A stretch of DNA of 30,283 bases from a phage. The notes under the pieces are model-generated. The model was not told the origin of the DNA. It searched no databases and saw only the letters and a list, made by a program, of their open reading frames with translations. Of the stretch, positions 21,421 through 30,283 are shown piece after piece. The stretch lies in assembly GCA_021534775.1 (NCBI GenBank), contig GCA_021534775.1_4809.1; one strand, written 5' to 3'. The position numbers and the translations under genes are program-made. The number at the start of each line of letters is the position of its first letter. The first letter of the stretch is position 1.

Positions 21421-21579
21421 TGTTGACGTAAATTTACGAAAAATAAAACTGAAAATCAGTTTAATTAAAGTGGCATTGCCGCCATAGTTTTTAGTTGCTA
21501 CTGGCGGCGACTGAAGGCATAATTAAGTTATCCCAAACGGGGAATATAAAATAAACTAATTTATTTAAGGACTGTGAAC

Positions 21580-22419
21580 ATGGCCGAAGCAATCAAAGTA
21601 TTATCCAAAGAAGAAAAACAAGCAGCTGCAGCAGAACGTCGTCGCGTGGCTGAAGAAAAACGCCTGGCTAAAAAGAAAGAAGCCGAAGAAAAACGCCAGA
21701 AGCGTGAGCAGGAAAAACAAGCCAAGCGTGAAGAAGCTGCACTGAAACGCAAGCAGGCCGCTGATGAGAAAGCACAGAAACGTGCTGAAGAAGCAGCGAA
21801 GAAAGCCAAAGAGCGTGCAGAAAAAGCTGCTGCTAAGAAAGCAGAGCGTGAAGCCGCTAAAGCAGCGAAAGAAATCGAAAAGGCAAAGGCTAAAGAAGAA
21901 GCCAAGCGCCTGAAAGCTGAACAAGCTGCTGCTAAGAAAGCAGAGCGTGATCAAGCCCGTGCTGCTGCTAAAGCAGAGAAGGAAAAGGCTAAAGAAGAAG
22001 CGAAAGCCAAACGCAAGGCAGAGCGTGAAGCTGCTAAGATTGCGGCGAAAGAAGCTGCAGAACAGCAGAAAGAACAGCGTAAGCAAGAAGCTGAAGAACG
22101 TCGCAAGGCTATCGCAGAGCGTAAGGCTGCTAAAAAGGCAAACGGTCAGCGTCGTGCAAAAGCTACTCACTTCATCTACACTGGCAACGGCCTGAGCCAG
22201 CCGCAAGAGCATTCCACCCGTGGACGCGTTCTGGCGGCGATCAAAGAAGGCGAAGTTGGCGTGGCGCAGTCTATCGATGAGCTGGGCGAAAAAGTTAAAG
22301 ATCAACTGTTTGGTGCTTCCGTTCGCTCCTACCTGAGCAAGCTGGAAGAGATGGGCCACATCGAGTTTGTCGATGTTGAATCCAACGACGATGCCGAAGA
22401 CGGTGATCAAGCGGAATAA
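21580..22419 (+). CDS. K/E/A-rich charged protein with a globular C-terminal domain (possible winged-helix)
   Basis: About 190 aa of KAEKEAAK-type low-complexity charged helix, then RGRVLAAIKEGEVGVAQSIDELGEKVKDQLFGASVRSYLSKLEEMGHIE; start taken at the ATG with RBS aagga rather than the track GTG at 21574. Confidence 0.65.
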   Translation: MAEAIKVLSKEEKQAAAAERRRVAEEKRLAKKKEAEEKRQKREQEKQAKREEAALKRKQAADEKAQKRAEEAAKKAKERAEKAAAKKAEREAAKAAKEIEKAKAKEEAKRLKAEQAAAKKAERDQARAAAKAEKEKAKEEAKAKRKAEREAAKIAAKEAAEQQKEQRKQEAEERRKAIAERKAAKKANGQRRAKATHFIYTGNGLSQPQEHSTRGRVLAAIKEGEVGVAQSIDELGEKVKDQLFGASVRSYLSKLEEMGHIEFVDVESNDDAEDGDQAE

Positions 22420-22447: not shown

Positions 22448-22475
22448 GACCCACACTTGTTGTGGGTCTTTTTTC
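22448..22475 (+). terminator. Intrinsic terminator
   Basis: gacccacac ttgt tgtgggtc followed by tttttt. Confidence 0.75.
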
Positions 22476-22500
22476 GTCTGTACTAAATAGAAATGACTTG

Positions 22501-22529
22501 TTGCTGTAAAATAATTTAGCTATTATACT
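22501..22529 (+). promoter_or_regulatory. Sigma70-like promoter (TTGCTG, 17 nt, TATACT) for the enzyme operon
   Basis: Lies between the terminator and the ATG at 22560. Confidence 0.5.
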
Positions 22530-22559
22530 TCTCATATCACCCACAAAGGACAAATGAAC

Positions 22560-23549
22560 ATGAAACAACCTGTAATGATTATCGGCGGCGGTTTGGCAGG
22601 ACTTATTACCGCGTGTCACTTCCCGAACTCTATTGTGTACGAAGCAGGGGAGCGAGCGCCACAGCACAAGGCGCTGCTACGCTTTCGCGGCGAAGAAGTA
22701 AGCCGTATTACCGGAATCCCTTTTAAGGCAGTGACAGTTGACAAGGCTGTGTATTTTCGCGGTAACTACTATCACGACCATTGCCCAATCAACCTTGCCA
22801 ATATGTATTCGATGAAGGTCACCAATCAGTTTGGCAGTCGCTCAATCATGAAGCTTAAAGCTGCAACGCGTTATATTGCGCCAGACGACTTCTATGATCA
22901 GCTTGTCGATAAACTGGGGGACCGTATATTCTTTAACACTCCGGTTGACACTCTTTGCGGCTATAGCGAGACGCCAATCATCAACACGTCGCCGCTGCCA
23001 GTTATGATGAAGCTGGCTGGGATTGATCAAAAGCTTGATTTTTCATTTGATAAAGCAAACATTCGTGTTTACCGCTTTAAGATTAAACGTAAGTGTGAGT
23101 TGTATCAGACAATTTACTTCCCTGACTACTCCGTCAGAACTTACCGCGCATCAATCACTGGTGACACACTTATCATCGAAACCATTCCTTTGGTCAGCGT
23201 AAGTGCAGCTGCAGTTGAAGCCGCTGGCGGCATCACTCGTTACCGCGACATGAAGCTTCGCGCAGAAGTCGACGAAGTGTTGACAGCCTTTGGCCTCTCA
23301 TGGAGTGACATTGCTCTTGAAGAAGTTGAAAAGGTCGACCAGAAATATGGCAAGATCGTCGACATTCCGAAGGACTTGCGACACGCCCTACTCCTGCAGC
23401 TGACTATGGATTTGAACGTGTTTAGTGTCGGTCGATTTGCTACCTGGCGCAACATTTTGCTTGATGATGTCGCTCATGACCTTGTTGAAGTTGAAAAACT
23501 CATCAAAGCAAATAACTATCAAAAATTTGCTTATATTGCTAATAAATAA
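22560..23549 (+). CDS. Rossmann-fold FAD/NAD(P)-binding oxidoreductase-like protein
   Basis: N-terminal dinucleotide-binding motif MIIGGGLAGL (GxGxxG); start at ATG 22560 fits the RBS aagga better than the track start at 22554. Confidence 0.65.
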   Translation: MKQPVMIIGGGLAGLITACHFPNSIVYEAGERAPQHKALLRFRGEEVSRITGIPFKAVTVDKAVYFRGNYYHDHCPINLANMYSMKVTNQFGSRSIMKLKAATRYIAPDDFYDQLVDKLGDRIFFNTPVDTLCGYSETPIINTSPLPVMMKLAGIDQKLDFSFDKANIRVYRFKIKRKCELYQTIYFPDYSVRTYRASITGDTLIIETIPLVSVSAAAVEAAGGITRYRDMKLRAEVDEVLTAFGLSWSDIALEEVEKVDQKYGKIVDIPKDLRHALLLQLTMDLNVFSVGRFATWRNILLDDVAHDLVEVEKLIKANNYQKFAYIANK

Positions 23550-23550
23550 T

Positions 23551-23578
23551 TTGCTTTCTGCTTCAATGGGCGTATACT
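23551..23578 (+). promoter_or_regulatory. Sigma70-like promoter (TTGCTT, 16 nt, TATACT) overlapped by an inverted repeat
   Basis: Inverted repeat ctgcttcaatg (23559-23569) / cattgaagcag (23585-23595) brackets the -10. Confidence 0.45.
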
Positions 23579-23614
23579 TTAATCATTGAAGCAGAACTCA
23601 TAGAGGAAACGAAA

Positions 23615-24061
23615 ATGAAACGAATCACTGGAATCGCGCTTGCCGCAACCGCTATTCTCGGCACCATGTATATGGAAGCTACTGAAGCAGCTGTCCGCAC
23701 TTCCGATTCAATCGCTGTGTATGATTGCGAAGCGATGGACGGTAAAACCGCAGCAGCCACTGGCGCAACTATCACGGCTTACATCGGCGTGAACGAGCAA
23801 GAAGGTCTGAATATTCAGATTCAAGGATTCACAGGCAAAGGTGCCAACCGCACTCCTTGGATGCAACGTTTCACTTTCGTTCAGCCTCGTTCAACTGGCG
23901 GCTTTATCAACCTGATTGGTGAAAACCGTTCTGGTGCAGAAATCTTTACATCAATGAGTTCTAATAATGAACCAAAGAAAAGTTTTCAGTTGCTTTATAA
24001 CGCACAATTCGTTTATCATTGCACCTTCTCTGGTGATCAGCAACTAGTAAATTACCGTTAA
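23615..24061 (+). CDS. Putative secreted or periplasmic protein (148 aa)
   Basis: N-terminal signal-peptide-like segment MKRITGIALAATAILG; no lipobox cysteine. Confidence 0.6.
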   Translation: MKRITGIALAATAILGTMYMEATEAAVRTSDSIAVYDCEAMDGKTAAATGATITAYIGVNEQEGLNIQIQGFTGKGANRTPWMQRFTFVQPRSTGGFINLIGENRSGAEIFTSMSSNNEPKKSFQLLYNAQFVYHCTFSGDQQLVNYR

Positions 24062-24074
24062 TAGGATAATTAAA

Positions 24075-24878
24075 ATGAAAGTTGAATTAATTCGATACAC
24101 CCAAGATGCACTTGACCTTCTGCTGGAAACAAAGAACACGCGCATGACTGGTAAGCCTGTCTCTGAGATGACGGAATCAGAGAAGCAAGAGCATTGGCGC
24201 TACATGCTTGACACCATCAAGTCGCCTTTTGACTTTGTGGACTATATCTTTGACATCACCGCTGTATCAAAGAATATGACTCATCAGATGGTACGCACAC
24301 GCACAGGCGCATATCAAGAACGCACCAGCCGCGCTCAGGAATCTTCTGCATTTGATGCGATTCGCCCGAAAGCGTTTGAGTATGACGACCCTGACAGGGT
24401 TATCGGCGAGCGAATCGACGAGCAGCGTTTGAAGTTGGCTAACACCTGGGATGATGCAATGGCAACCATTGATGCCCTATACCAAGAACTTCGCGCGGCT
24501 GGCGCAGAGATTCAGGATGCACGTGCTGTGTTGCCTTCTAATATGCAAACGCATATCATGGCAAAGTTCAACTTGCGCACTCTACAACAAATGGCATCAA
24601 ACCGCTTGTGCACGCGCACTCAAGGCGAATATCAGGAAGTTTTCCGTGCGATGGTAGCGGAAGTCCTCAAGGTGCACCCGTGGGCTAATCCTTTACTACA
24701 GCCGCAATGCATCGGTATGGGTAAGTGCGCATTTCCTCGTCACGGTAAGGCCCATTGCCCATGGTATCGTGGTTGGATGGATACCACTGCACAGCAAGAA
24801 GAGTTGCGCATCCAGTTTTGGAATGCCGCGCCAATCACCAACAATCCAGTTGCTAAAGATGGAGTATCAAAGGGATGA
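24075..24878 (+). CDS. Divergent ThyX-like (flavin-dependent thymidylate synthase family) protein
   Basis: SPFDF...THQMVRTRTGAYQERTSRAQ and ARAVLPSN...NLRTLQQMASNRL match the ThyX signature regions (TPFEH / RHRx7-8S / ARAVLP / NxRxxxxFxxLR as I recall them) but with substitutions at signature positions. Confidence 0.7.
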   Translation: MKVELIRYTQDALDLLLETKNTRMTGKPVSEMTESEKQEHWRYMLDTIKSPFDFVDYIFDITAVSKNMTHQMVRTRTGAYQERTSRAQESSAFDAIRPKAFEYDDPDRVIGERIDEQRLKLANTWDDAMATIDALYQELRAAGAEIQDARAVLPSNMQTHIMAKFNLRTLQQMASNRLCTRTQGEYQEVFRAMVAEVLKVHPWANPLLQPQCIGMGKCAFPRHGKAHCPWYRGWMDTTAQQEELRIQFWNAAPITNNPVAKDGVSKG

Positions 24879-25747
24879 GCATTAAAAACAGTGAAATCTT
24901 AAACGTATTTGACCTTGACGGAACGCTGTTTGATGACCGTTGGCGCTTAGACCGCATCAAGGTGGCAGGACCGCTGTCAGACTACGATGATTATCACTGC
25001 GGCATTGGTTATGATCAGTTCTATCCTAACATTGCATCCGCAGTAGAGGCTGCATCTCTTCGCGGTGAGGCGGTTGAATATTGGACTGCAAGGCCAGAAA
25101 AATACAGACAAGTGACTTTTGAACGTCTGGACAATGTTTTCCCTTTTGATGAATTTACAATCAAGATGAGAGACTCTGGCGACAAACGTCCATCAACTAT
25201 TATGAAGTCTGCATGGCTATCGCACGCATTGCGGCACGGCGATTATCGAATCATCAATGTATTCGACGACCGACAAGACGTACTCGCGCGGATGCAAGAT
25301 GAAGCATTGTATTATAATTCCGTTGCTCAAAATAAAATCGCTTTTACATTTAATCTTTGCAAGGCAGGTGAAGTGGTGCAACAATTAGCAATTGATCCAA
25401 GCGCAACAGGGCAAGAAGAGACTAAGGCTGTGGAAGTTGAACAACCTCCGGCAACCGCTGCTGATATTCTTGATGCGATGGCCGCGACCTTCCGTGAGCG
25501 CAACGCCGTTTATGGCGATAACGCTGTGATGGTAGGTCAGGTTATGCAGGTCCTGTTCCCTAATGGTGTGACGCTGAAAACGCCGGAAGACTACCACATG
25601 TGGCATCTTTTCGAGCTTAAGATTGTCAAGCTTACACGCTTCGCAATCAGCGGCCTGAAGCACGAAGATTCTATACACGACGATGGTGTTTACAGCGCCA
25701 TGTGTGAACGTCTCGTCAACACCCACAATATTAATTTCAATAAATAG
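24875..25747 (+). CDS. HAD-superfamily phosphatase-like domain fused to a C-terminal domain of unknown function
   Basis: Motif I FDLDGTLFD, a Thr in WTARPE, a Lys (MKSAW) and VFDDRQD; C-terminal about 115 aa (RERNAVYGDNAVMVGQV...) is unassigned. ATGA overlap with the ThyX-like gene. Confidence 0.65.
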   Translation: MSIKNSEILNVFDLDGTLFDDRWRLDRIKVAGPLSDYDDYHCGIGYDQFYPNIASAVEAASLRGEAVEYWTARPEKYRQVTFERLDNVFPFDEFTIKMRDSGDKRPSTIMKSAWLSHALRHGDYRIINVFDDRQDVLARMQDEALYYNSVAQNKIAFTFNLCKAGEVVQQLAIDPSATGQEETKAVEVEQPPATAADILDAMAATFRERNAVYGDNAVMVGQVMQVLFPNGVTLKTPEDYHMWHLFELKIVKLTRFAISGLKHEDSIHDDGVYSAMCERLVNTHNINFNK

Positions 25748-25776
25748 TTTACTTGTGCGTTTCGATGAGTTATATT
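25748..25776 (+). promoter_or_regulatory. Sigma70-like promoter (TTTACT, 17 nt, TATATT) overlapped by an inverted repeat
   Basis: Inverted repeat gtttcgatgag (25759-25769) / ctcatcgaaac (25780-25790) brackets the -10. Confidence 0.45.
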
Positions 25777-25812
25777 TATCTCATCGAAACGAAGTCCAAA
25801 AAGGATAAATAA

Positions 25813-26496
25813 ATGAAAAAAGTAATTGTTGTAACTGGCTGCAACTCCGGTCTTGGTAAATCAATTTTTGACACCCTTGGCGCTTACGGTCACGAAGTCG
25901 TCGGAATCGATTTAGACAATGGATATGACATCCGCAATGCTAAACAGATGAAAGAGCTTCTCTCTCAATACGACGTAGAAGGCTTGATCAACTGTGCTGG
26001 CGTCAACTCTAACAACTGGTTTGAAGATGTCAACTACGAAGAGTTCAACCGCGTTATGCACACCAACGCCTTCTCTTTCGTCAACACAACTCAAGCCGCG
26101 CTGAAAAGTCTTATCGACAACAAAGGTTTTGTGATCAACATCGTTTCCAACGCTGCGCATATTCCTATGACGTCCAGCTTGTGTTATAATGCATCCAAGG
26201 CCGCTGCACTGATGATCAGCAAGCAGATGGCCCACGAGCTTACGCCTAAGTACGGCATCACGGTATTCTCTATTAGTCCTAACAAGTTGCGCGGCACTGG
26301 TATGTCTAAGCAGATTGAAGATGCTGTTTGTGCGACTCGCGGCTGGACTCCTGAATACGCCGCTGAATACCAGAAAAAGGCGTTGATGAATGGATTGGAG
26401 ACTGAGCCGCAAGTAATTGCTGACTTCATTCGCCATATCTTAATTACGGGCGCATGGCGCTTTATGTCTGGGACTGATATTCCATTTGGGAAATAA
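25813..26496 (+). CDS. Short-chain dehydrogenase/reductase (SDR) family oxidoreductase
   Basis: TGCNSGLGK (TGxxxGxG), NAG-like INCAGV, catalytic S...YNASK (YxxxK). Confidence 0.85.
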   Translation: MKKVIVVTGCNSGLGKSIFDTLGAYGHEVVGIDLDNGYDIRNAKQMKELLSQYDVEGLINCAGVNSNNWFEDVNYEEFNRVMHTNAFSFVNTTQAALKSLIDNKGFVINIVSNAAHIPMTSSLCYNASKAAALMISKQMAHELTPKYGITVFSISPNKLRGTGMSKQIEDAVCATRGWTPEYAAEYQKKALMNGLETEPQVIADFIRHILITGAWRFMSGTDIPFGK

Positions 26497-26499
26497 ATC

Positions 26500-26667
26500 A
26501 TGACTATCAAAGTTGTTGTAGAAGTGATTGGCGACGTGGCAGAAGTGAAGATTGATCAAGAAGGCGTTGGATTTGAAGTAATAAGAATCGAAAACGCAAA
26601 GGTTAACCACGAGCGCGTCGGTTCCATTGAGACTTATTCCATAGAAGGCAAAGATAAGGGCGAATAA
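26500..26667 (+). CDS. Small protein (55 aa, MTIKVVVEVIGDVAEVKIDQEGVGFEVIRIENAKVNHERVGSIETYSIEGKDKGE)
   Basis: Hand-translated ORF packed between the SDR and the next gene with 3-nt spacers. Confidence 0.4.
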   Translation: MTIKVVVEVIGDVAEVKIDQEGVGFEVIRIENAKVNHERVGSIETYSIEGKDKGE

Positions 26668-26669
26668 CC

Positions 26670-26885
26670 ATGAACAAAGCCTGGATAGCGGTAATCGGTT
26701 TAGTGCTTCTTGTTGTATTAGGATACACAATCAAATTTGAAGTTCCAAATCCTGTTGAGCCTGACAAAAAGATTGTCGTTGAAGTCCCAGGCGCTAAAGG
26801 TGAATTGCCCAAACCTAAATTTGAAGTTGTCACACCAGCTCCTGAAAAGAAACAGGACGAAGACAACACAGTAATTAATCAATAA
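26670..26885 (+). CDS. Small membrane-anchored protein (71 aa)
   Basis: N-terminal TM helix WIAVIGLVLLVVLGY followed by a Pro/Lys/Glu-rich tail. Confidence 0.55.
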   Translation: MNKAWIAVIGLVLLVVLGYTIKFEVPNPVEPDKKIVVEVPGAKGELPKPKFEVVTPAPEKKQDEDNTVINQ

Positions 26886-26905
26886 TATTTAATTAAGGAA
26901 ACAAA

Positions 26906-27457
26906 ATGCCACATTTTAAAATTGAACAAATCGCCCTGTCCATTCCAGATGCTCAACGCGCTCAGGACTTCCTGGCTAAAATCGGCCTGACAGAGTGGTT
27001 CCATGATCATGTTGTTGCTACTGGTCGCGTATTTGAAGCTGATGACTTTAAAGGTCGTCGCGACGATTGCACCAATGAAGCTGACTTGCGCTTCAACTAT
27101 CAGGCTGGCAACGGCACCGATGTCGGCGCTGGTAAGCCTCTTGAGCTTGAAATCCTTGACTACACAATGGGCTGCAACTGGATTAATGAAAACATCGAAT
27201 ATATCGATGCGCACGATAATCAGGTCAGCCACCTTGGCATGCACGTGACTGCCGCTGAACTCGCTGAATGGCGTAAGTTCTTTAGTGAAGAAGGCATTCA
27301 GGTTGCACAGGAAGTTGTAACCGACTCTCACACCAACCCAAATATTGCTGGTCAGCGTCGTTACAACTATGTGATCTTTGATACTCGTGAAATCATCGGT
27401 GTCGACCTTAAGTTCATTGTGCGGTTGAATCAAGACGGTACTCCGTACACTGTATAA
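26906..27457 (+). CDS. VOC (glyoxalase / bleomycin-resistance / dioxygenase) fold protein, tentative
   Basis: RBS aagga; overall pattern including SHLGMHV suggests a metal-binding VOC-type fold, but the assignment is weak. Confidence 0.5.
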   Translation: MPHFKIEQIALSIPDAQRAQDFLAKIGLTEWFHDHVVATGRVFEADDFKGRRDDCTNEADLRFNYQAGNGTDVGAGKPLELEILDYTMGCNWINENIEYIDAHDNQVSHLGMHVTAAELAEWRKFFSEEGIQVAQEVVTDSHTNPNIAGQRRYNYVIFDTREIIGVDLKFIVRLNQDGTPYTV

Positions 27458-27473
27458 AGAATCTTAAATCTGT

Positions 27474-27498
27474 GGCCGTCCTAATGGGCGGCCTTTTT
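27474..27498 (+). terminator. Intrinsic terminator
   Basis: ggccgtcc taat gggcggcc followed by ttttt. Confidence 0.7.
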
Positions 27499-27511: not shown

Positions 27512-28054
27512 GTGTTATTTCTCCCTTATGACTTCGAAACAACCGGATTGACCGTGCACCCGAAAGCGCCGCTTGGAATGCAGCCGCGCCCTATTGAATT
27601 TGCAGGCCTGTTGACAGACGGCAAAGAGATTCTTGAAACGTTCGAGTTCATAATTAATCCTGAAATTGTGATTGAAGAAATCATCACAAAGATTACCGGA
27701 TTAACCAATGAAGACCTTGAGTGCAATCCACCATTCATCAACTTCGTCCCGCAGCTAAAAGAAATCTTCAAGAAGACGGATGCAACTATTGCGCACAACC
27801 ATGCGTTCGATAAGAACATTCTTGATTATGCACTACAGCGCGAAGGACTTACGCTTGATGATGTTAATTTTCCAGAAATAAACATATGTACAGTTGAGCA
27901 AACCTTGCCTATTTTTGGCCGAAGAGTTAAGCTTCAAGAGTTGTATGAATTATATTTCGGAAAATATGAACAGAAGCACCGTGCATTAGACGACGTAATA
28001 TTACTGCACAAAGTCTGCCAACAAATTGGCGTATATGACATCTGGAGTAAATAA
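27512..28054 (+). CDS. DnaQ-like DEDDh 3'-5' exonuclease (proofreading subunit-like)
   Basis: GTG start 5 nt after aggagg; Exo I YDFETTG, Exo II AHNHAFD, Exo III HRALDD. Confidence 0.85.
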   Translation: MLFLPYDFETTGLTVHPKAPLGMQPRPIEFAGLLTDGKEILETFEFIINPEIVIEEIITKITGLTNEDLECNPPFINFVPQLKEIFKKTDATIAHNHAFDKNILDYALQREGLTLDDVNFPEINICTVEQTLPIFGRRVKLQELYELYFGKYEQKHRALDDVILLHKVCQQIGVYDIWSK

Positions 28055-30283
28055 TGTTTCCACAATTGAGAGTTCGCAGCGGTTACACGTTCAAAGAAGT
28101 TTATGGACGGCATCCTGAAATTATAGCACGGCTCAAAGAGTTGGGCTGCGAAGTCGCGGCATTAGTTGATAACAATACATGGGGTCACGTTCGCTGGGAA
28201 AAGGAATGCCAGAAAAATGATATTAAGCCTATGTTTGGGATGGAGATTCCAATCATCGACCCTGATGCGGACCCGAAAAAGGGATTCAAACCGAAGGCTT
28301 GGATATTGGCCCTTGACTTAAAATCTTTTTACAACGCTACAACACTTGCAACGCAGCGCGGTGGACTTACCCGTGCAGAGTTCGGGGCGCTCGATGGCGT
28401 CGTTAAATTCTGTGGCGGTGCCGTGGAGCTGCTGCGGCCAGAGGACTACGACTATATAGACGTCAACCCATCATCGTTCCTTTTGGCAAAGCGCCAGGCA
28501 TTGGCTCATCGTAGCGGTGGAAGGCCGCTGGTTTTAACCGGATACAATCACATGCCTTCTCCTGAGCACGTTGACTTCGCTTATGCTTGGGAAGTTCGCG
28601 ACACTGTGAAGCCGCATTGCATCGTTGACGTGGAAGACTTGCGCAAACAGCTTAAAGGCATCTTGACTGAAGATGAGCTCAATCAGGCAACGGCCAATGC
28701 TGTTGACATAGCAAACGGCATAGTCGGACTTGACTTGAAATTGCGTAAGGCACCGATTATTCACCTTGCTGGTGACATGGTAAAGCTTGCTCGCGAGGGG
28801 ATGGAGTACCGTCTAAAAGCAGGTCACATCAAAGAATGGACTCAGGAATATGAGGACCGCTTCAACGAAGAAATTCACCAGATTCAGCTGAAAGATTTCG
28901 ACTCATACTTTCTGGTAGTAGCCGACCTTGTACGATTCGCAAAAACAAAAATGCTTGTCGGTCCTGCGCGCGGCTCATCGGCTGGTTCACTTGTTTGCTA
29001 TTGCCTCGGCATCACGGAAGTGGACCCAATACCGTATAAGCTGCTGTTTGCCCGATTCATCGACGTAAGCCGCGCCGACCTTCCTGACATCGACATCGAC
29101 TTTGAAGATACCAAACGCTATATGGTGTTTGATTATCTTAAAGAGAAATACGGCGAAATGAACGTTGCAAAGCTTGGCAACATCAACACGCTTAAGGCCA
29201 ACTCAGTAATGGCGCAGGTTGGTAAGAAGTTCAACATTGGATACCACGAAACGGCCAACATTAAAAACGCACTGCTTGAATACTCATCCGGTGACGCCCG
29301 TTATGGTCACGGCCTGGAGGATACCTTTGCAACAACGACCACGGGTCAAGAGTTCGTGGCGAAATATCCTGACGCCGCGCGTTGCATGGGTGACCTTGAG
29401 ATTCACCCGTCTCACACAGGTGTTCACGCAGCGGGAATCATTGTGTGTAATGACCCAATCTCTGATTACTGTACTGTAACTGCAGAAGGGATTGCGCAAA
29501 TTGATAAGCCTGACAGCGAATACCTTAACCTTTTGAAGCTTGATGCGTTGGGCCTTCGTACCCTCGGCATCATTTCTGATACTGGCGTGATAGATGCTGA
29601 AACGCTGTACGGAATCAAGCTTGATGATCAAAGCGTCCTTGACATCCTTAACGAAAACAAAATGTCAGGCATCTTCCAGTTTGAAGGTGACGCTGTACGC
29701 TCAGTAACCAACTTTGTGCACGTTGATAACTTTAACAAAATCGATAACCTGACAGCACTTGGTCGACCTGGCCCGTTGTCATCCGGTATGGCCCAGAAAT
29801 ACATCGAACGCGCGGCAGGGCGTGCACCGATTGAGTATGATGTGCCGCAGCTTGAGCCGTACTTAAAAGAGACTTACGGCGTGTTTCTTTACCAAGAGCA
29901 AATCATGGCCGTGGTTAAAGAGATTGGTTCATTTGACTGGGCGAAAACATCCGCTGTACGTAAGGCGATGTCAGGCCGTAAGGGTGAGGAATACTTTAAC
30001 AAGCTTGGCGAAGACTTCGTTGCAGGCGCAATAAATAATGGCGTACCGGAAGCGGATGCAAGAAAGCTTTGGCAGGCGATGGCGACGTTCGGGTCATGGG
30101 GCTTTAACAAGTCACACTCCGTGTCATACGCGGTCGTGACCTACTGGACCTTGTGGCTTAAACGACACTACCCGTTGGAATTTGCCGCTGCTTGCTTACG
30201 CGCTGCTAAGGACGAAGACCAGACGATTGCGATATTACGTGAACTTGCGAAGGAAGGCGTGGATTACGTTCCAATCGACCCTG
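28054..30283 (+). CDS. dnaE: DNA polymerase III alpha (DnaE-type) catalytic subunit, 3'-partial
   Basis: ATG overlaps the exonuclease stop (TAATG) and the frame stays open to the window end. Palm motifs GSSAGSLVCYCLGITEVDP and FARFIDVSRADLPDIDIDFEDTKR; N-terminal PHP region with degenerate His motif (QLRVRSGYTF). Confidence 0.9.
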   Translation, partial: MFPQLRVRSGYTFKEVYGRHPEIIARLKELGCEVAALVDNNTWGHVRWEKECQKNDIKPMFGMEIPIIDPDADPKKGFKPKAWILALDLKSFYNATTLATQRGGLTRAEFGALDGVVKFCGGAVELLRPEDYDYIDVNPSSFLLAKRQALAHRSGGRPLVLTGYNHMPSPEHVDFAYAWEVRDTVKPHCIVDVEDLRKQLKGILTEDELNQATANAVDIANGIVGLDLKLRKAPIIHLAGDMVKLAREGMEYRLKAGHIKEWTQEYEDRFNEEIHQIQLKDFDSYFLVVADLVRFAKTKMLVGPARGSSAGSLVCYCLGITEVDPIPYKLLFARFIDVSRADLPDIDIDFEDTKRYMVFDYLKEKYGEMNVAKLGNINTLKANSVMAQVGKKFNIGYHETANIKNALLEYSSGDARYGHGLEDTFATTTTGQEFVAKYPDAARCMGDLEIHPSHTGVHAAGIIVCNDPISDYCTVTAEGIAQIDKPDSEYLNLLKLDALGLRTLGIISDTGVIDAETLYGIKLDDQSVLDILNENKMSGIFQFEGDAVRSVTNFVHVDNFNKIDNLTALGRPGPLSSGMAQKYIERAAGRAPIEYDVPQLEPYLKETYGVFLYQEQIMAVVKEIGSFDWAKTSAVRKAMSGRKGEEYFNKLGEDFVAGAINNGVPEADARKLWQAMATFGSWGFNKSHSVSYAVVTYWTLWLKRHYPLEFAAACLRAAKDEDQTIAILRELAKEGVDYVPIDP

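What the first reader, a model, noticed from the sequence alone, without database searches (positions are those of the whole stretch)
24075..24878. ThyX-family protein with substitutions at signature positions
The protein aligns with the ThyX core (THQ(L/M)(I/V)R-x-R...Y...S...; ARAVLP; N-x-R-x-L) as I recall it from Thermotoga and Mycobacterium ThyX. However the RHR motif reads RTR, the region equivalent to SQRY reads TSRA, the TPFEH region reads SPFDF, and the YRAWRH region reads NLRTLQ. Changes at such positions would be expected to alter substrate or chemistry, or to inactivate classical dUMP methylation. This is consistent with a ThyX-derived enzyme acting on a different nucleotide. The reference alignment is from memory, not computed.
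Basis: partly seen in the sequence, partly recalled or inferred. Interest (0 to 1): 0.7.

Follow-up and report, generated by a model that had tools for sequence, protein, structure and literature searches.

The report
Latch-less phage ThyX paired with mutase-like flavoenzyme
This phage gene encodes a real ThyX-type flavoenzyme that keeps the parts binding dUMP but lacks residues thought essential for making thymidylate, and its fixed pairing with a sugar-mutase-like flavoprotein makes it a testable candidate for starting the sugar-bearing thymidine modification recently found in related Pseudomonas phages.

Summary
The ORF at 24075-24878 is real. It has the ThyX fold and matches Pfam Thy1, but it scores below NCBI's thyX equivalog cut-off.

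TPFEH->SPFDF and 'YRAWRH' are not true signature changes.

The altered residues (Tm His53, Asn85, Tyr91, His178; Ser88 relaxed) form the folate-stacking/latch/acid set. Every nucleotide-activating arginine is kept (R78, R80, R90, R147, R174, plus Q75). A different nucleotide substrate, or inactivation, is therefore unlikely.

The pattern is invariant in 121 relatives and defines a monophyletic, phage-borne clade (117 of 137 sampled relatives).

The gene sits in a terminator-bracketed cassette: UGM-like FAD protein, ThyX-like, HAD phosphatase, DUF6378-like domain, SDR and a VOC-like protein, upstream of the DNA polymerase. The FAD-ThyX pair recurs in 59 of 60 informative metagenomic loci, in PB1, in a Rhizobium jumbo phage and in a 42-kb Cronobacter podovirus.

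A 2025 preprint reports sugar-bearing hypermodified thymidine of unknown biosynthesis in Pbunavirus. Wifceviruses resist restriction unexplained.

Best reading (0.5): it makes a C5-substituted dUMP that feeds this modification. Main rival (0.38): a divergent but ordinary thymidylate synthase.

The parts
22448..22468 (+). Intrinsic-terminator-like hairpin closing the upstream gene; 5' boundary of the cassette
   Evidence: 8-bp stem with 5 GC pairs followed by TTTTTT
22554..23549 (+). 331-aa FAD-dependent flavoprotein, most similar in fold to UDP-galactopyranose mutase; constant partner of the ThyX-like gene
23615..24061 (+). 148-aa protein with a signal-peptide-like N-terminus; lineage-specific insertion, probably not part of the pathway
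   Evidence: No family hit. No homolog in PB1, TM40 or the 80 IMG/VR loci.
24075..24878 (+). ThyX-like flavoenzyme (267 aa), the finding itself
   Evidence: Pfam Thy1 103.5 bits. phrog_85. TIGR02170 scores 80.1, below the 87.9 cut-off. ThyX fold.
24216..24218 (+). Ile48 codon, at the position of T. maritima His53 (folate/flavin-stacking latch histidine)
   Evidence: Alignments. Ile is invariant in 121 relatives. Role of His53 from PMC11940539.
24285..24335 (+). Core ThyX motif Q71...R74-T75-R76...A79-Y80-Q81-E82...T84-S85-R86-A87 (Tm Q75, R78 H79 R80, S83, N85, E86, S88 G89 R90 Y91)
   Evidence: R74, R76 and R86 are kept. H79->T, S83->A, N85->Q, S88->T and Y91->A.
24522..24617 (+). Second half of the active site: R150 (Tm R147), N166, R168, R177 (Tm R174, dUMP activator), C179, R181 (Tm H178)
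   Evidence: Role of R174 from PMC8316439.
24609..24758 (+). Four invariant cysteines (C179, C212, C218, C228) in a subfamily-specific C-terminal insertion; probable metal site
   Evidence: Invariant in 121 relatives. All-or-none in 137 relatives: 77 have all four, 59 have none, 1 is partial. Also present in the canonical ThyX of Clostridium phage phiCP39-O.
24875..25408 (+). HAD-superfamily phosphatase domain (DxDGT motif) of the 290-aa downstream protein
   Evidence: Pfam HAD_PNKP 35.8 bits. phrog_4889. Found downstream of ThyX-like in 63 of 80 loci by phmmer.
25409..25747 (+). C-terminal ~110-aa domain (RERNxVYGDN...WHLFE...KLTRF...HxDSIHD), DUF6378-like; usually a separate gene elsewhere
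   Evidence: 58.6% median identity in 70 of 80 loci; separate from HAD in most of them. The F8 homolog weakly hits DUF6378, E 0.022. A TM40 homolog exists.
25813..26496 (+). Classical short-chain dehydrogenase/reductase (227 aa)
   Evidence: Pfam adh_short 110 bits. PDB best hits are generic FabG and carbonyl reductases. Present in 42 of 56 informative loci. Absent at this place in PB1.
26906..27457 (+). 183-aa protein with a weak VOC/glyoxalase-like match; last gene of the unit
   Evidence: Glyoxalase_4 E 0.0028, below cut-off. Homolog in 38 of 56 informative loci.
27474..27493 (+). Strong intrinsic-terminator-like hairpin; 3' boundary of the cassette
   Evidence: 8-bp stem with 7 GC pairs followed by TTTTT
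27512..30283 (+). 3'-5' exonuclease and DnaE-type DNA polymerase (runs off the window); conserved downstream context
   Evidence: phrog_192 and RNase_T. Homologs follow the cassette in 59-61 of 80 loci and in Ss1.

Best explanation
The ORF encodes an active flavoenzyme of a distinct, phage-borne ThyX subfamily that I call 'latch-less'.

Shown:
- It has the ThyX fold.
- It keeps every arginine and the glutamine that bind the phosphate and polarise the uracil of dUMP.
- It has lost the His53-Tyr91-Asn85 set that in canonical ThyX stacks on the folate pterin, latches the reduced flavin and acts as the acid in methylene transfer. Ser88 is no longer constrained.
- It is co-inherited with a UGM-like FAD protein, and usually with a HAD phosphatase, a DUF6378-like protein, an SDR and a VOC-like protein. 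Together they form one terminator-bracketed unit upstream of the phage DNA polymerase.

Inferred:
- It still stacks dUMP on reduced FAD and uses flavin N5 as a covalent carrier to put a carbon substituent on C5.
- The carbon donor or the fate of the exocyclic-methylene intermediate differs from that in thymidylate synthesis.
- The product is therefore a C5-substituted deoxyuridylate (5-hydroxymethyl-, alkoxymethyl- or sugar-derived alkyl-dUMP) rather than plain dTMP.
- This would be the first committed step of the sugar-bearing thymidine hypermodification reported for the related Pbunaviruses, and a plausible cause of the unexplained restriction resistance of Wifceviruses.
For: Family and fold.

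Residue pattern: it is invariant in 121 relatives. Among 137 sampled relatives, 117 lack both His53 and Tyr91, and they form one clade with all canonical sequences outside it. Ser88 is S/T/A = 66/32/18 in that clade but S in 16 of 16 canonical sequences. R78, R90, R147 and R174 are essentially invariant in both groups.

Literature on canonical ThyX: Tyr91 and Ser88 are 'strictly conserved'. Y91A/F slows the reaction 100- to 1000-fold. His53 stacks on the pterin and H-bonds Tyr91 and Asn85. R174 activates dUMP. ThyX flavin can also take its carbon from a free aldehyde (formaldehyde) via an N5-carbinolamine (PMC8316439).

Equivalog test: fails the TIGR02170 cut-off.

Cassette:
- Terminators bracket 22468-27493.
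- The same order FAD -> ThyX-like -> HAD -> CTD -> SDR -> orf183 -> exo -> pol is seen in IMG/VR loci: FAD in 59/60, CTD in 53/56, SDR in 42/56.
- The FAD + ThyX-like pair also occurs in PB1, in the 207-kb Rhizobium phage TM40 and in the 42-kb podovirus Ss1.
- It is absent next to the canonical ThyX of L5, phiCP39-O and Mgbh1.

No ThyA or second ThyX was found in the window or in 55 kb of the sister genome.

Pbunavirus virion DNA carries thymidine derivatives of 362 and 390 Da at TG sites. The biosynthesis is unknown and there are no homologs of known modification genes.

F8 and 14-1 carry different adducts. The genes around ThyX (HAD 81%, orf58 78%, orf60 78%, ThyX 94%) are more divergent between them than the polymerase, helicase and primase (96-99%).

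My arithmetic: dU + pentose - H2O + 2H = 362, and dU + hexose - H2O = 390.
Against: - No enzyme of this clade has been assayed, and no Wifcevirus DNA has been analysed chemically.
- The Pbunavirus modification is confined to TG and leaves three quarters of T canonical. That needs a sequence-reading step on DNA, which a mononucleotide enzyme cannot supply.
- No kinase for a bulky dNMP and no glycosyl- or base-transferase was recognised in the cassette or in F8 neighbours.
- A folate-dependent hydroxymethylase would still need the His53 and Tyr91 functions, so the residue loss fits only the folate-independent variants of this idea.
- Latch-less ThyX in Gordonia phages has no UGM-like, HAD or SDR neighbour within 4 kb, so the clade can work without the cassette.
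- The cassette's conservation could partly reflect vertical inheritance of one replication module, because the exonuclease and polymerase are conserved too.
- In TM40 the gene sits near dUTPase and ribonucleotide reductase, as an ordinary thymidylate synthase would.
Confidence: 0.5

Rival explanations
1. It is a bona fide flavin-dependent thymidylate synthase (dUMP -> dTMP) with a divergent folate/flavin side. Other residues, such as R181, T84/S85 or the Cys-rich C-terminal extension, would replace His53 and Tyr91, possibly with the neighbouring flavoprotein acting as a dedicated redox partner. The cassette neighbours would do something unrelated, or would make the hypermodification without it.
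For: - Clear ThyX family and fold.
- All dUMP-binding and dUMP-activating residues, and most FAD-contact residues (T55->S, E58, R78, R80, N163, R165), are conserved.
- It sits in the replication module next to the polymerase.
- TM40 has it within 4 kb of dUTPase and RNR.
- It is the only thymidylate-synthase-like gene in the genome.
- Three quarters of Pbunavirus T is canonical, and the TG specificity points to DNA-level modification that does not need a special nucleotide.
- Gordonia phages carry latch-less ThyX without the cassette.
- Every database annotator calls it thymidylate synthase.
Against: - Tyr91 and Ser88 are described as strictly conserved, and Y91A/F costs 100- to 1000-fold.
- In this clade position 91 is any of V/F/A/T/I/L, and Ser88 is Ala in 18 members. 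No fixed substitute is visible at those positions.
- The folate-stacking His53 is aliphatic throughout the clade.
- It scores below the NCBIfam equivalog cut-off.
- Nothing explains a UGM-like flavoprotein in 59 of 60 loci, including a 42-kb podovirus with no other nucleotide-metabolism gene.
Confidence: 0.38
2. One reading: a ThyX-derived enzyme acting on a different nucleotide, for example dCMP or a purine nucleotide.
For: - Signature positions are altered.
- ThyA-family enzymes have repeatedly switched to dCMP in phages, for example the 5-hydroxy-dCMP synthase.
- The ThyX paralog PolB accepts UMP.
Against: - The arginines that hydrogen-bond the uracil carbonyls and N3 (Tm R90, R174), Q75 and the phosphate clamp (R147, R78) are invariant. 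An exocyclic amino group of cytosine would clash with them. This last point is an inference from the mechanism.
- The changed residues sit on the folate/latch side.
- The modification known in relatives is on thymine, not cytosine.
Confidence: 0.05
3. A catalytically dead ThyX relic kept as a structural, regulatory or nucleotide-binding subunit.
For: It has lost three residues considered catalytic.
Against: - 70-odd positions are invariant, including the complete arginine shell of the active site, over 51-99% identity.
- The clade is large and old: 363 representatives at E<=1e-10.
- Inteins are inserted in relatives, as is typical of essential active enzymes.
Confidence: 0.04

Closest known systems
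Canonical flavin-dependent thymidylate synthase ThyX/FDTS (T. maritima TM0449, M. tuberculosis Rv2754c, mycobacteriophage L5 gp48)
   Same: - Same Pfam family and fold.
- Same R-x-R...R core, ARxxLP arginine and N-x-R...R segment.
- Same dUMP-activating R174 and R90.
- Presumably the same FAD-stacked nucleotide site.
   Different: - His53->Ile, His79->Thr, Ser83->Ala, Asn85->Gln, Ser88->Thr, Tyr91->Ala, His178->Arg.
- A 60-residue C-terminal extension with four Cys.
- Below the TIGR02170 equivalog cut-off.
- Always next to a UGM-like flavoprotein. L5 gp48 has the canonical residues and no such neighbour.
PolB of Streptomyces cacaoi / S. viridochromogenes (ThyX paralog, UMP/dUMP C5-methylase in polyoxin biosynthesis; PDB 4P5A/4P5B)
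   Same: It is the only described neofunctionalised ThyX-family enzyme. The fold matches the model (TM 0.69). It is embedded in a biosynthetic gene cluster rather than in housekeeping metabolism.
   Different: PolB still methylates with folate, and as I recall it keeps the ThyX motif. It is a weak sequence match here (E 0.002-0.028). It is bacterial rather than phage-borne, and has no UGM-like partner.
Phage ThyA-family neofunctionalised enzymes (dUMP and dCMP hydroxymethylases; flavin-binding 5-hydroxy-dCMP synthase of RB69/DLP3)
   Same: They do the job proposed here: a thymidylate-synthase homolog makes a C5-functionalised pyrimidine mononucleotide that becomes the handle for sugar or amino-acid hypermodification of phage DNA.
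   Different: They have an unrelated fold (ThyA, not ThyX). No ThyA homolog is present here. Their products enter DNA through the dNTP pool, whereas the Pbunavirus adduct is TG-specific.
UDP-galactopyranose mutase (for the partner protein at 22554-23549)
Thymidine hypermodification pathways of phages M6, ViI, SP10 and PhiW-14 (Lee et al. 2018, 2021)
   Same: The result in relatives is alike: part of T is replaced by a bulky C5-methyl-substituted derivative that blocks restriction enzymes.
   Different: Those pathways start with a ThyA-type dUMP hydroxymethylase and use 5-hmdU DNA kinase and aGPT-Pplase enzymes. The authors who found the Pbunavirus modification say these are not present in Pbunavirus. 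I did not search for these two enzyme families myself.

Membership tests
ThyX / Thy1 protein family (Pfam PF02511) | Significant match to the family profile above the curated gathering score | tested here: met
   103.5 bits against a cut-off of 24.8, covering profile positions 2-191 of 191
ThyX / Thy1 protein family (Pfam PF02511) | ThyX fold | tested here: met
   AF2 model with pLDDT 85. Foldseek against T. maritima, M. tuberculosis, T. thermophilus and PolB structures gives probability 1.00 and TM up to 0.76.
Flavin-dependent thymidylate synthase, functional equivalog (NCBIfam TIGR02170 thyX) | Score at or above the curated equivalog cut-off | tested here: not met
   80.1 bits against a cut-off of 87.9
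Flavin-dependent thymidylate synthase, functional equivalog (NCBIfam TIGR02170 thyX) | ThyX motif R-H-R-x-x-S-x-x-x-x-S-x-R | tested here: not met
   Reads R-T-R-T-G-A-Y-Q-E-R-T-S-R. All three Arg are kept; His->Thr, first Ser->Ala, second Ser->Thr.
Flavin-dependent thymidylate synthase, functional equivalog (NCBIfam TIGR02170 thyX) | Active-site-loop Tyr91 (general acid; 'strictly conserved') and latch/folate-stacking His53 | tested here: not met
   Ala87 and Ile48, invariant in 121 relatives. Roles taken.
Flavin-dependent thymidylate synthase, functional equivalog (NCBIfam TIGR02170 thyX) | dUMP-binding and dUMP-activating residues (Tm Q75, R78, R90, R147, R174) | tested here: met
   Q71, R74, R86, R150 and R177 are invariant
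Flavin-dependent thymidylate synthase, functional equivalog (NCBIfam TIGR02170 thyX) | FAD bound; NADPH- and CH2-THF-dependent conversion of dUMP to dTMP; complementation of thyA | not testable with these tools
   Needs biochemistry or genetics. No assay of any clade member was found in the literature searches.
Known phage thymidine-hypermodification systems (ThyA-type hydroxymethylase + 5-HMUDK + aGPT-Pplase) | ThyA-family dUMP hydroxymethylase | tested here: not met
Known phage thymidine-hypermodification systems (ThyA-type hydroxymethylase + 5-HMUDK + aGPT-Pplase) | 5-hmdU DNA kinase and aGPT-Pplase-type transferases | not tested
   No reference sequences were at hand. Pfam and PHROG scans of the cassette and of F8 neighbours showed none. 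The END-nuclease preprint states Pbunavirus lacks known modification genes.
UDP-galactopyranose mutase (partner protein) | Sequence-family membership (Pfam GLF / NAD_binding_8) and a UDP-sugar binding site | tested here: inconclusive

The most novel reading that the evidence does not exclude
The ThyX-like enzyme and its UGM-like partner could form a folate-independent, two-flavoenzyme system.

In this reading, reduced-flavin N5 covalent catalysis couples the carbonyl (anomeric) carbon of a sugar, rather than the methylene of CH2-THF, to C5 of dUMP. Reduction or ring closure of the resulting exocyclic alkylidene then follows.

This would give 5-(polyhydroxyalkyl)- or C-glycosyl-type deoxyuridylates. 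Their nucleoside masses are dU + pentose - H2O + 2H = 362 and dU + hexose - H2O = 390, exactly the two unknown thymidine derivatives of Pbunavirus F8 and 14-1.

The HAD phosphatase, SDR, VOC-like and DUF6378-like genes would prepare the sugar or process the nucleotide. An unidentified DNA-level enzyme would place the base at TG sites.

This would be a new reaction class for the ThyX family and a new route to hypermodified DNA. It would occur in a clade spanning hundreds of phage lineages, including the main Pseudomonas therapy phages.
Probability: 0.25. Interest if true: 0.95.

Novelty: new variant of a known kind. Interest (0 to 1): 0.78.

Why it matters
ThyX is studied as an antibiotic target and as a textbook case of flavin covalent catalysis, and Tyr91, Ser88 and His53 are treated as indispensable. 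A large, strongly conserved natural clade that lacks them has one of two meanings:
- The accepted mechanism is not the only way to make dTMP on this scaffold.
- The scaffold has been recruited for new C5 chemistry.

The second case would supply the missing biosynthetic entry point for the sugar-bearing thymidine found in 2025 in Pbunaviruses. These are the phages most used against Pseudomonas aeruginosa, and their modification determines sensitivity to END nucleases and restriction enzymes. It could also explain why Wifceviruses ignore almost all E. coli restriction systems.

In both cases hundreds of phage genes annotated 'thymidylate synthase' may be mis-annotated. The cassette (UGM-like + ThyX-like ± HAD, DUF6378, SDR) gives a simple genomic marker for predicting modified phage DNA.

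Tried and rejected
- **Domain fusions as functional clues.** The long relatives (360-637 aa) contain only inteins, a GIY-YIG homing endonuclease or unknown N-termini. These were not informative about function.
- **Naming the metagenomic relatives.** All ten clusters looked up were unnamed metagenome proteins.
- **A Pbunavirus carrying an extra ThyA.** 'Pseudomonas phage Y10' (66.7 kb) hit E. coli ThyA at 70% identity. However, it is 67% GC, marked UNVERIFIED, and shares nothing with PB1 or the window. I dropped it.
- **A phage T-dioxygenase route.** The PNAS 2026 paper mentions neither Pbunavirus nor Wifcevirus.
- **Finer typing of neighbours.**
  - SDR: only generic FabG and carbonyl-reductase hits.
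  - HAD protein: no PDB sequence hit.
  - C-terminal domain: no Pfam hit in the window protein.
  - F8 orf50-52 and orf68-71: no glycosyltransferase, kinase or dioxygenase domain.
- **DNA-binding character of the ThyX-like protein.** Its pI is 6.6, so nothing suggests it.
- **Papers I could not obtain.** Koehn 2012 (folate site), Mishanina 2016 and Ceyssens 2009. The full lists of FAD and dUMP contact residues therefore rest on my memory of the 1O26 structure.
- **Model coordinates.** They are not exposed, so I could not measure whether the four Cys cluster in space or whether Ile48 and Ala87 open a cavity.
- **Searches not run.** I did not scan genome contigs for cellular genomes that rely solely on a latch-less ThyX. 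I also did not check the whole TM40 genome for a second thymidylate synthase.
Full report
**What the window is.** The 30-kb window comes from a Wifcevirus-type E. coli myovirus. Its 22.5-26.5 kb stretch is 94% identical in DNA to Escherichia phages HansTraber_Bas100, ECML-117, WFH and others. These phages are distant relatives of the Pseudomonas PB1-like phages (Pbunavirus), whose ThyX homolog is about 50% identical.

**Checking the observation.**
- The ORF at 24075-24878 (+) is real. It is 267 aa and overlaps the next gene by 4 nt.
- It matches Pfam Thy1 at 103.5 bits and phrog_85.
- An AlphaFold model built on 71 homologs (pLDDT 85, pTM 0.80) matches T. maritima ThyX structures with Foldseek probability 1.00 and TM about 0.74. 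It also matches PolB and the M. tuberculosis and T. thermophilus enzymes.

I also used MAFFT alignments that included T. maritima ThyX.
- Two of the four claimed changes are right and meaningful: RHR -> R74-T75-R76, and S-x-R-Y -> T84-S85-R86-A87.
- 'TPFEH -> SPFDF' is literally true but weak. That histidine (Tm H59) is Met in the solved T. thermophilus enzyme.
- 'YRAWRH -> NLRTLQ' is not a signature change. The stretch already differs between T. maritima and M. tuberculosis, and the conserved Asn and Arg residues around it are retained.
Tm His53, six residues upstream of TPFEH, is Ile48. Asn85 is Gln81 and His178 is Arg181.

**What the changed and unchanged residues do.** Two open-access papers on T. 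maritima ThyX give the roles.
- Tyr91 and Ser88 are called 'strictly conserved'. They are proposed as the acids that help the flavin-N5 carbinolamine transfer its methylene to dUMP. Y91A/F slows the reaction by two to three orders of magnitude.
- His53 stacks on the folate pterin and on the reduced isoalloxazine, and is held by hydrogen bonds from Tyr91 and Asn85.
- R174 activates dUMP, and R90 lies next to Tyr91.

In the window protein the whole His53-Asn85-Tyr91 set is replaced. Ser88 becomes Thr. Q75, R78, R80, R90, R147, R165 and R174 are all kept. The alterations therefore lie on the folate/latch side of the active site, not in the nucleotide pocket.

The protein also fails the curated NCBIfam thyX equivalog threshold, at 80.1 against 87.9 bits.

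**Is it a decaying gene?** No.
- Among 120 homologs of 51-99% identity, all on phage-sized contigs of roughly 68-74 kb, the unusual residues are invariant. So are about 70 other positions, including the whole arginine shell.
- An exhaustive search of 1.84 billion cluster representatives found 363 relatives at E<=1e-10.
- In an alignment of the best 150 plus named phage proteins, 117 of 137 lack both His53 and Tyr91 and 16 have both. Only 4 are mixed.
- In a neighbour-joining tree the 117 form one clade that contains no fully canonical sequence.
- Within that clade position 91 is V/F/A/T/I/L. Position 53 is I/L/V. Ser88 is relaxed (S 66, T 32, A 18), against 16 of 16 Ser in canonical relatives.
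- Relatives carry inteins and a homing endonuclease, as active and important genes often do.
- Mycobacteriophage L5 gp48, Clostridium phage phiCP39-O and Bacillus phage Mgbh1 have the canonical residues. PB1, Rhizobium phage RHph_TM40 and Gordonia phage MoiGyank have the latch-less pattern.

**Four cysteines.** C179, C212, C218 and C228 are invariant in the close clade. They are present or absent as a set across all relatives (77 with all four, 59 with none, 1 partial). The set also occurs in canonical ThyX of the Clostridium phage. This looks like a metal site that predates the loss of the latch.

**Surroundings in the window.** Two strong terminator-like hairpins, at 22448-22468 and 27474-27493, bracket six co-oriented genes:
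- A 331-aa FAD protein.
- A 148-aa secreted-looking protein that is lineage-specific.
- The ThyX-like gene.
- A HAD phosphatase fused to a ~110-aa domain. Its F8 homolog weakly resembles DUF6378.
- A classical SDR.
- A 183-aa weakly VOC-like protein.

A 3'-5' exonuclease and a DnaE-type polymerase follow.

**Conservation of the neighbourhood.**
- PB1 has the FAD protein, the ThyX-like gene and the HAD protein in the same order.
- The unrelated 207-kb Rhizobium phage TM40 has homologs of the FAD protein (34% identity, E 1e-54) and of the C-terminal domain within 4 kb of its latch-less ThyX.
- I scanned IMG/VR with a profile of the more distant, Cys-less branch. This returned 80 loci with the same same-strand order: FAD, ThyX-like, HAD, C-terminal domain, SDR, orf183, exonuclease, polymerase.
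- Among loci with enough flanking sequence, 59 of 60 have the FAD gene, 53 of 56 the C-terminal domain, 42 of 56 the SDR and 38 of 56 orf183.
- None of the 80 loci has a ThyA homolog at E<=1e-4.
- The 42-kb Cronobacter podovirus Ss1 has only the FAD + ThyX-like pair in front of its exonuclease and polymerase. It has no other nucleotide-metabolism gene.
- Phages with canonical ThyX, and the Gordonia phage, lack these neighbours.
- The sister genome Bas100 has no other thymidylate synthase, ribonucleotide reductase, dUTPase or dCMP deaminase annotated. No ThyA-like sequence is detectable there.

**Literature that changes the picture.**
- A March 2025 preprint on END nucleases reports that Pbunavirus virion DNA, long thought unmodified, carries hypermodified thymidine at TG sites. 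It replaces about a quarter of T.
- The new nucleosides have masses of 362 Da (F8, 'erythrose/threose sugar alcohol derivative') and 390 Da (14-1, 'circularized aldopentose derivative').
- The authors state that Pbunaviruses lack homologs of known modification genes.
- I found no later paper on its biosynthesis.
- By my arithmetic both masses equal 5-hmdU plus erythritol or pentose minus water. Equally, they equal dU plus an aldopentose minus water plus 2H (362), and dU plus an aldohexose minus water (390).
- Between F8 and 14-1, which carry different adducts, the genes around ThyX are the most divergent in the 22-kb replication region apart from orf70: HAD 81%, orf58 78%, orf60 78%, orf61 82%, ThyX 94%, orf70 57%. 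Polymerase, helicases and primase are 96-99% identical.
- In the window 25% of T is followed by G.

**Interpretation.** Shown:
- This is an active-looking, strongly selected ThyX-fold protein.
- It retains the dUMP-activating machinery.
- It lacks the folate-stacking/latch/acid residues.
- It is co-inherited with a UGM-like flavoprotein and other small-molecule enzymes.

Inferred: the enzyme still uses reduced FAD stacked on dUMP to install a carbon substituent at C5. However, the donor, or the fate of the exocyclic methylene intermediate, differs from that in thymidylate synthesis. The product would then feed the sugar-bearing thymidine modification.

ThyX can load its flavin from a free aldehyde, formaldehyde. 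As I recall, UGM forms a flavin-N5 adduct with a sugar's anomeric carbon. Coupling a sugar carbon to C5 is therefore chemically conceivable, and it fits the masses. That is my most novel reading (probability about 0.25).

I give the broader statement, that the enzyme makes something other than plain dTMP for the hypermodification pathway, about 0.5.

**Main objections.**
- The TG specificity and the persistence of canonical T require a DNA-level step that a mononucleotide enzyme cannot provide.
- No kinase or transferase is recognisable.
- A folate-dependent hydroxymethylase would still need the lost residues.
- Gordonia phages have latch-less ThyX without the cassette.
- Part of the synteny may be inherited together with the polymerase module.

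The chief rival (0.38) is a genuine but mechanistically divergent thymidylate synthase, with its neighbours doing the modification chemistry without it. A switch to another nucleotide (0.05) and a dead enzyme (0.04) are unlikely, for the reasons given above.

**Comparison with known systems.**
- It is a member of the ThyX/Thy1 family by sequence and fold. It fails three tested defining features of the thymidylate-synthase equivalog: the curated score, the RHRxxSxxxxSxR motif, and Tyr91/His53. I therefore do not file it as a proven ThyX thymidylate synthase.
- The nearest precedent for a repurposed ThyX is PolB of polyoxin biosynthesis.
- The nearest functional analogues are ThyA-family phage enzymes that make hydroxymethyl- or hydroxy-pyrimidine nucleotides as handles for hypermodification.
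- I rate it a new variant of a known kind. It would be a new reaction class if the sugar-coupling idea holds.

Noticed in passing
window 21574-22419 (+): A 281-aa protein whose first ~200 residues are K/A/E-rich repeats (AKKAEREAAK...), resembling histone H1 or AlgP, followed by a small globular C-terminal domain. The overall pI is 9.6. It is conserved in PB1 (ORF66) and sits just upstream of the cassette. It could coat DNA and contribute to restriction resistance.
   Followed up: partly
window 24609-24758 (C179, C212, C218, C228 of the ThyX-like protein): Four cysteines are invariant in the close clade. Across 137 relatives they are present or absent strictly as a set, and the set also occurs in a canonical ThyX of Clostridium phage phiCP39-O. 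This is a probable Zn or Fe-S site that I have not seen described for ThyX.
   Followed up: partly
window 23615-24061 (+): A 148-aa ORF with a signal-peptide-like N-terminus is inserted between the FAD gene and the ThyX-like gene. It has no family hit and no homolog in PB1, TM40 or the 80 metagenomic loci.
   Followed up: partly
window 25409-25747 (+); L009-L088: The C-terminal ~110 residues of the HAD protein form an independent, very conserved module (RERNxVYGDN ... WHLFE ... KLTRF ... HxDSIHD). It is a separate gene in most related loci, at 58.6% median identity, which is higher than any other cassette protein. It only weakly resembles DUF6378. Its function is unknown.
   Followed up: partly
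L092 17894-19090 (F8 orf70) versus L093 17997-19301 (14-1 gp71): This is by far the most divergent protein between F8 and 14-1 in the replication region: 56.5% identity, 398 versus 434 aa. The two phages carry different thymidine adducts. It has only weak CxxC-type matches. It is a candidate for the step that reads the sugar or the DNA site.
   Followed up: partly
window 22448-22468 and 27474-27493 (+): Two strong GC-rich hairpins followed by T-runs bracket exactly the six-gene cassette, which suggests it is one transcription unit.
   Followed up: no
L091 (Cronobacter phage vB_CsaP_Ss1) 26655-27811, orf31 and orf32: In this 42-kb podovirus two unrelated ORFs (148 and 226 aa) occupy the place of HAD/CTD/SDR between the ThyX-like gene and the exonuclease. 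They may be non-homologous replacements for the accessory enzymes.
   Followed up: no
L005 (Gordonia phage MoiGyank) 2658-4813; L007 (Bacillus phage Mgbh1) 2500-4627; L001 24458-25051: MazG-like pyrophosphatase genes sit close to the ThyX gene in MoiGyank and Mgbh1, covering both the latch-less and the canonical type. In the Wifcevirus genome Bas100 the MazG-like gene lies about 10 kb downstream of the ThyX-like gene. This may be a general nucleotide-pool pairing.
   Followed up: no
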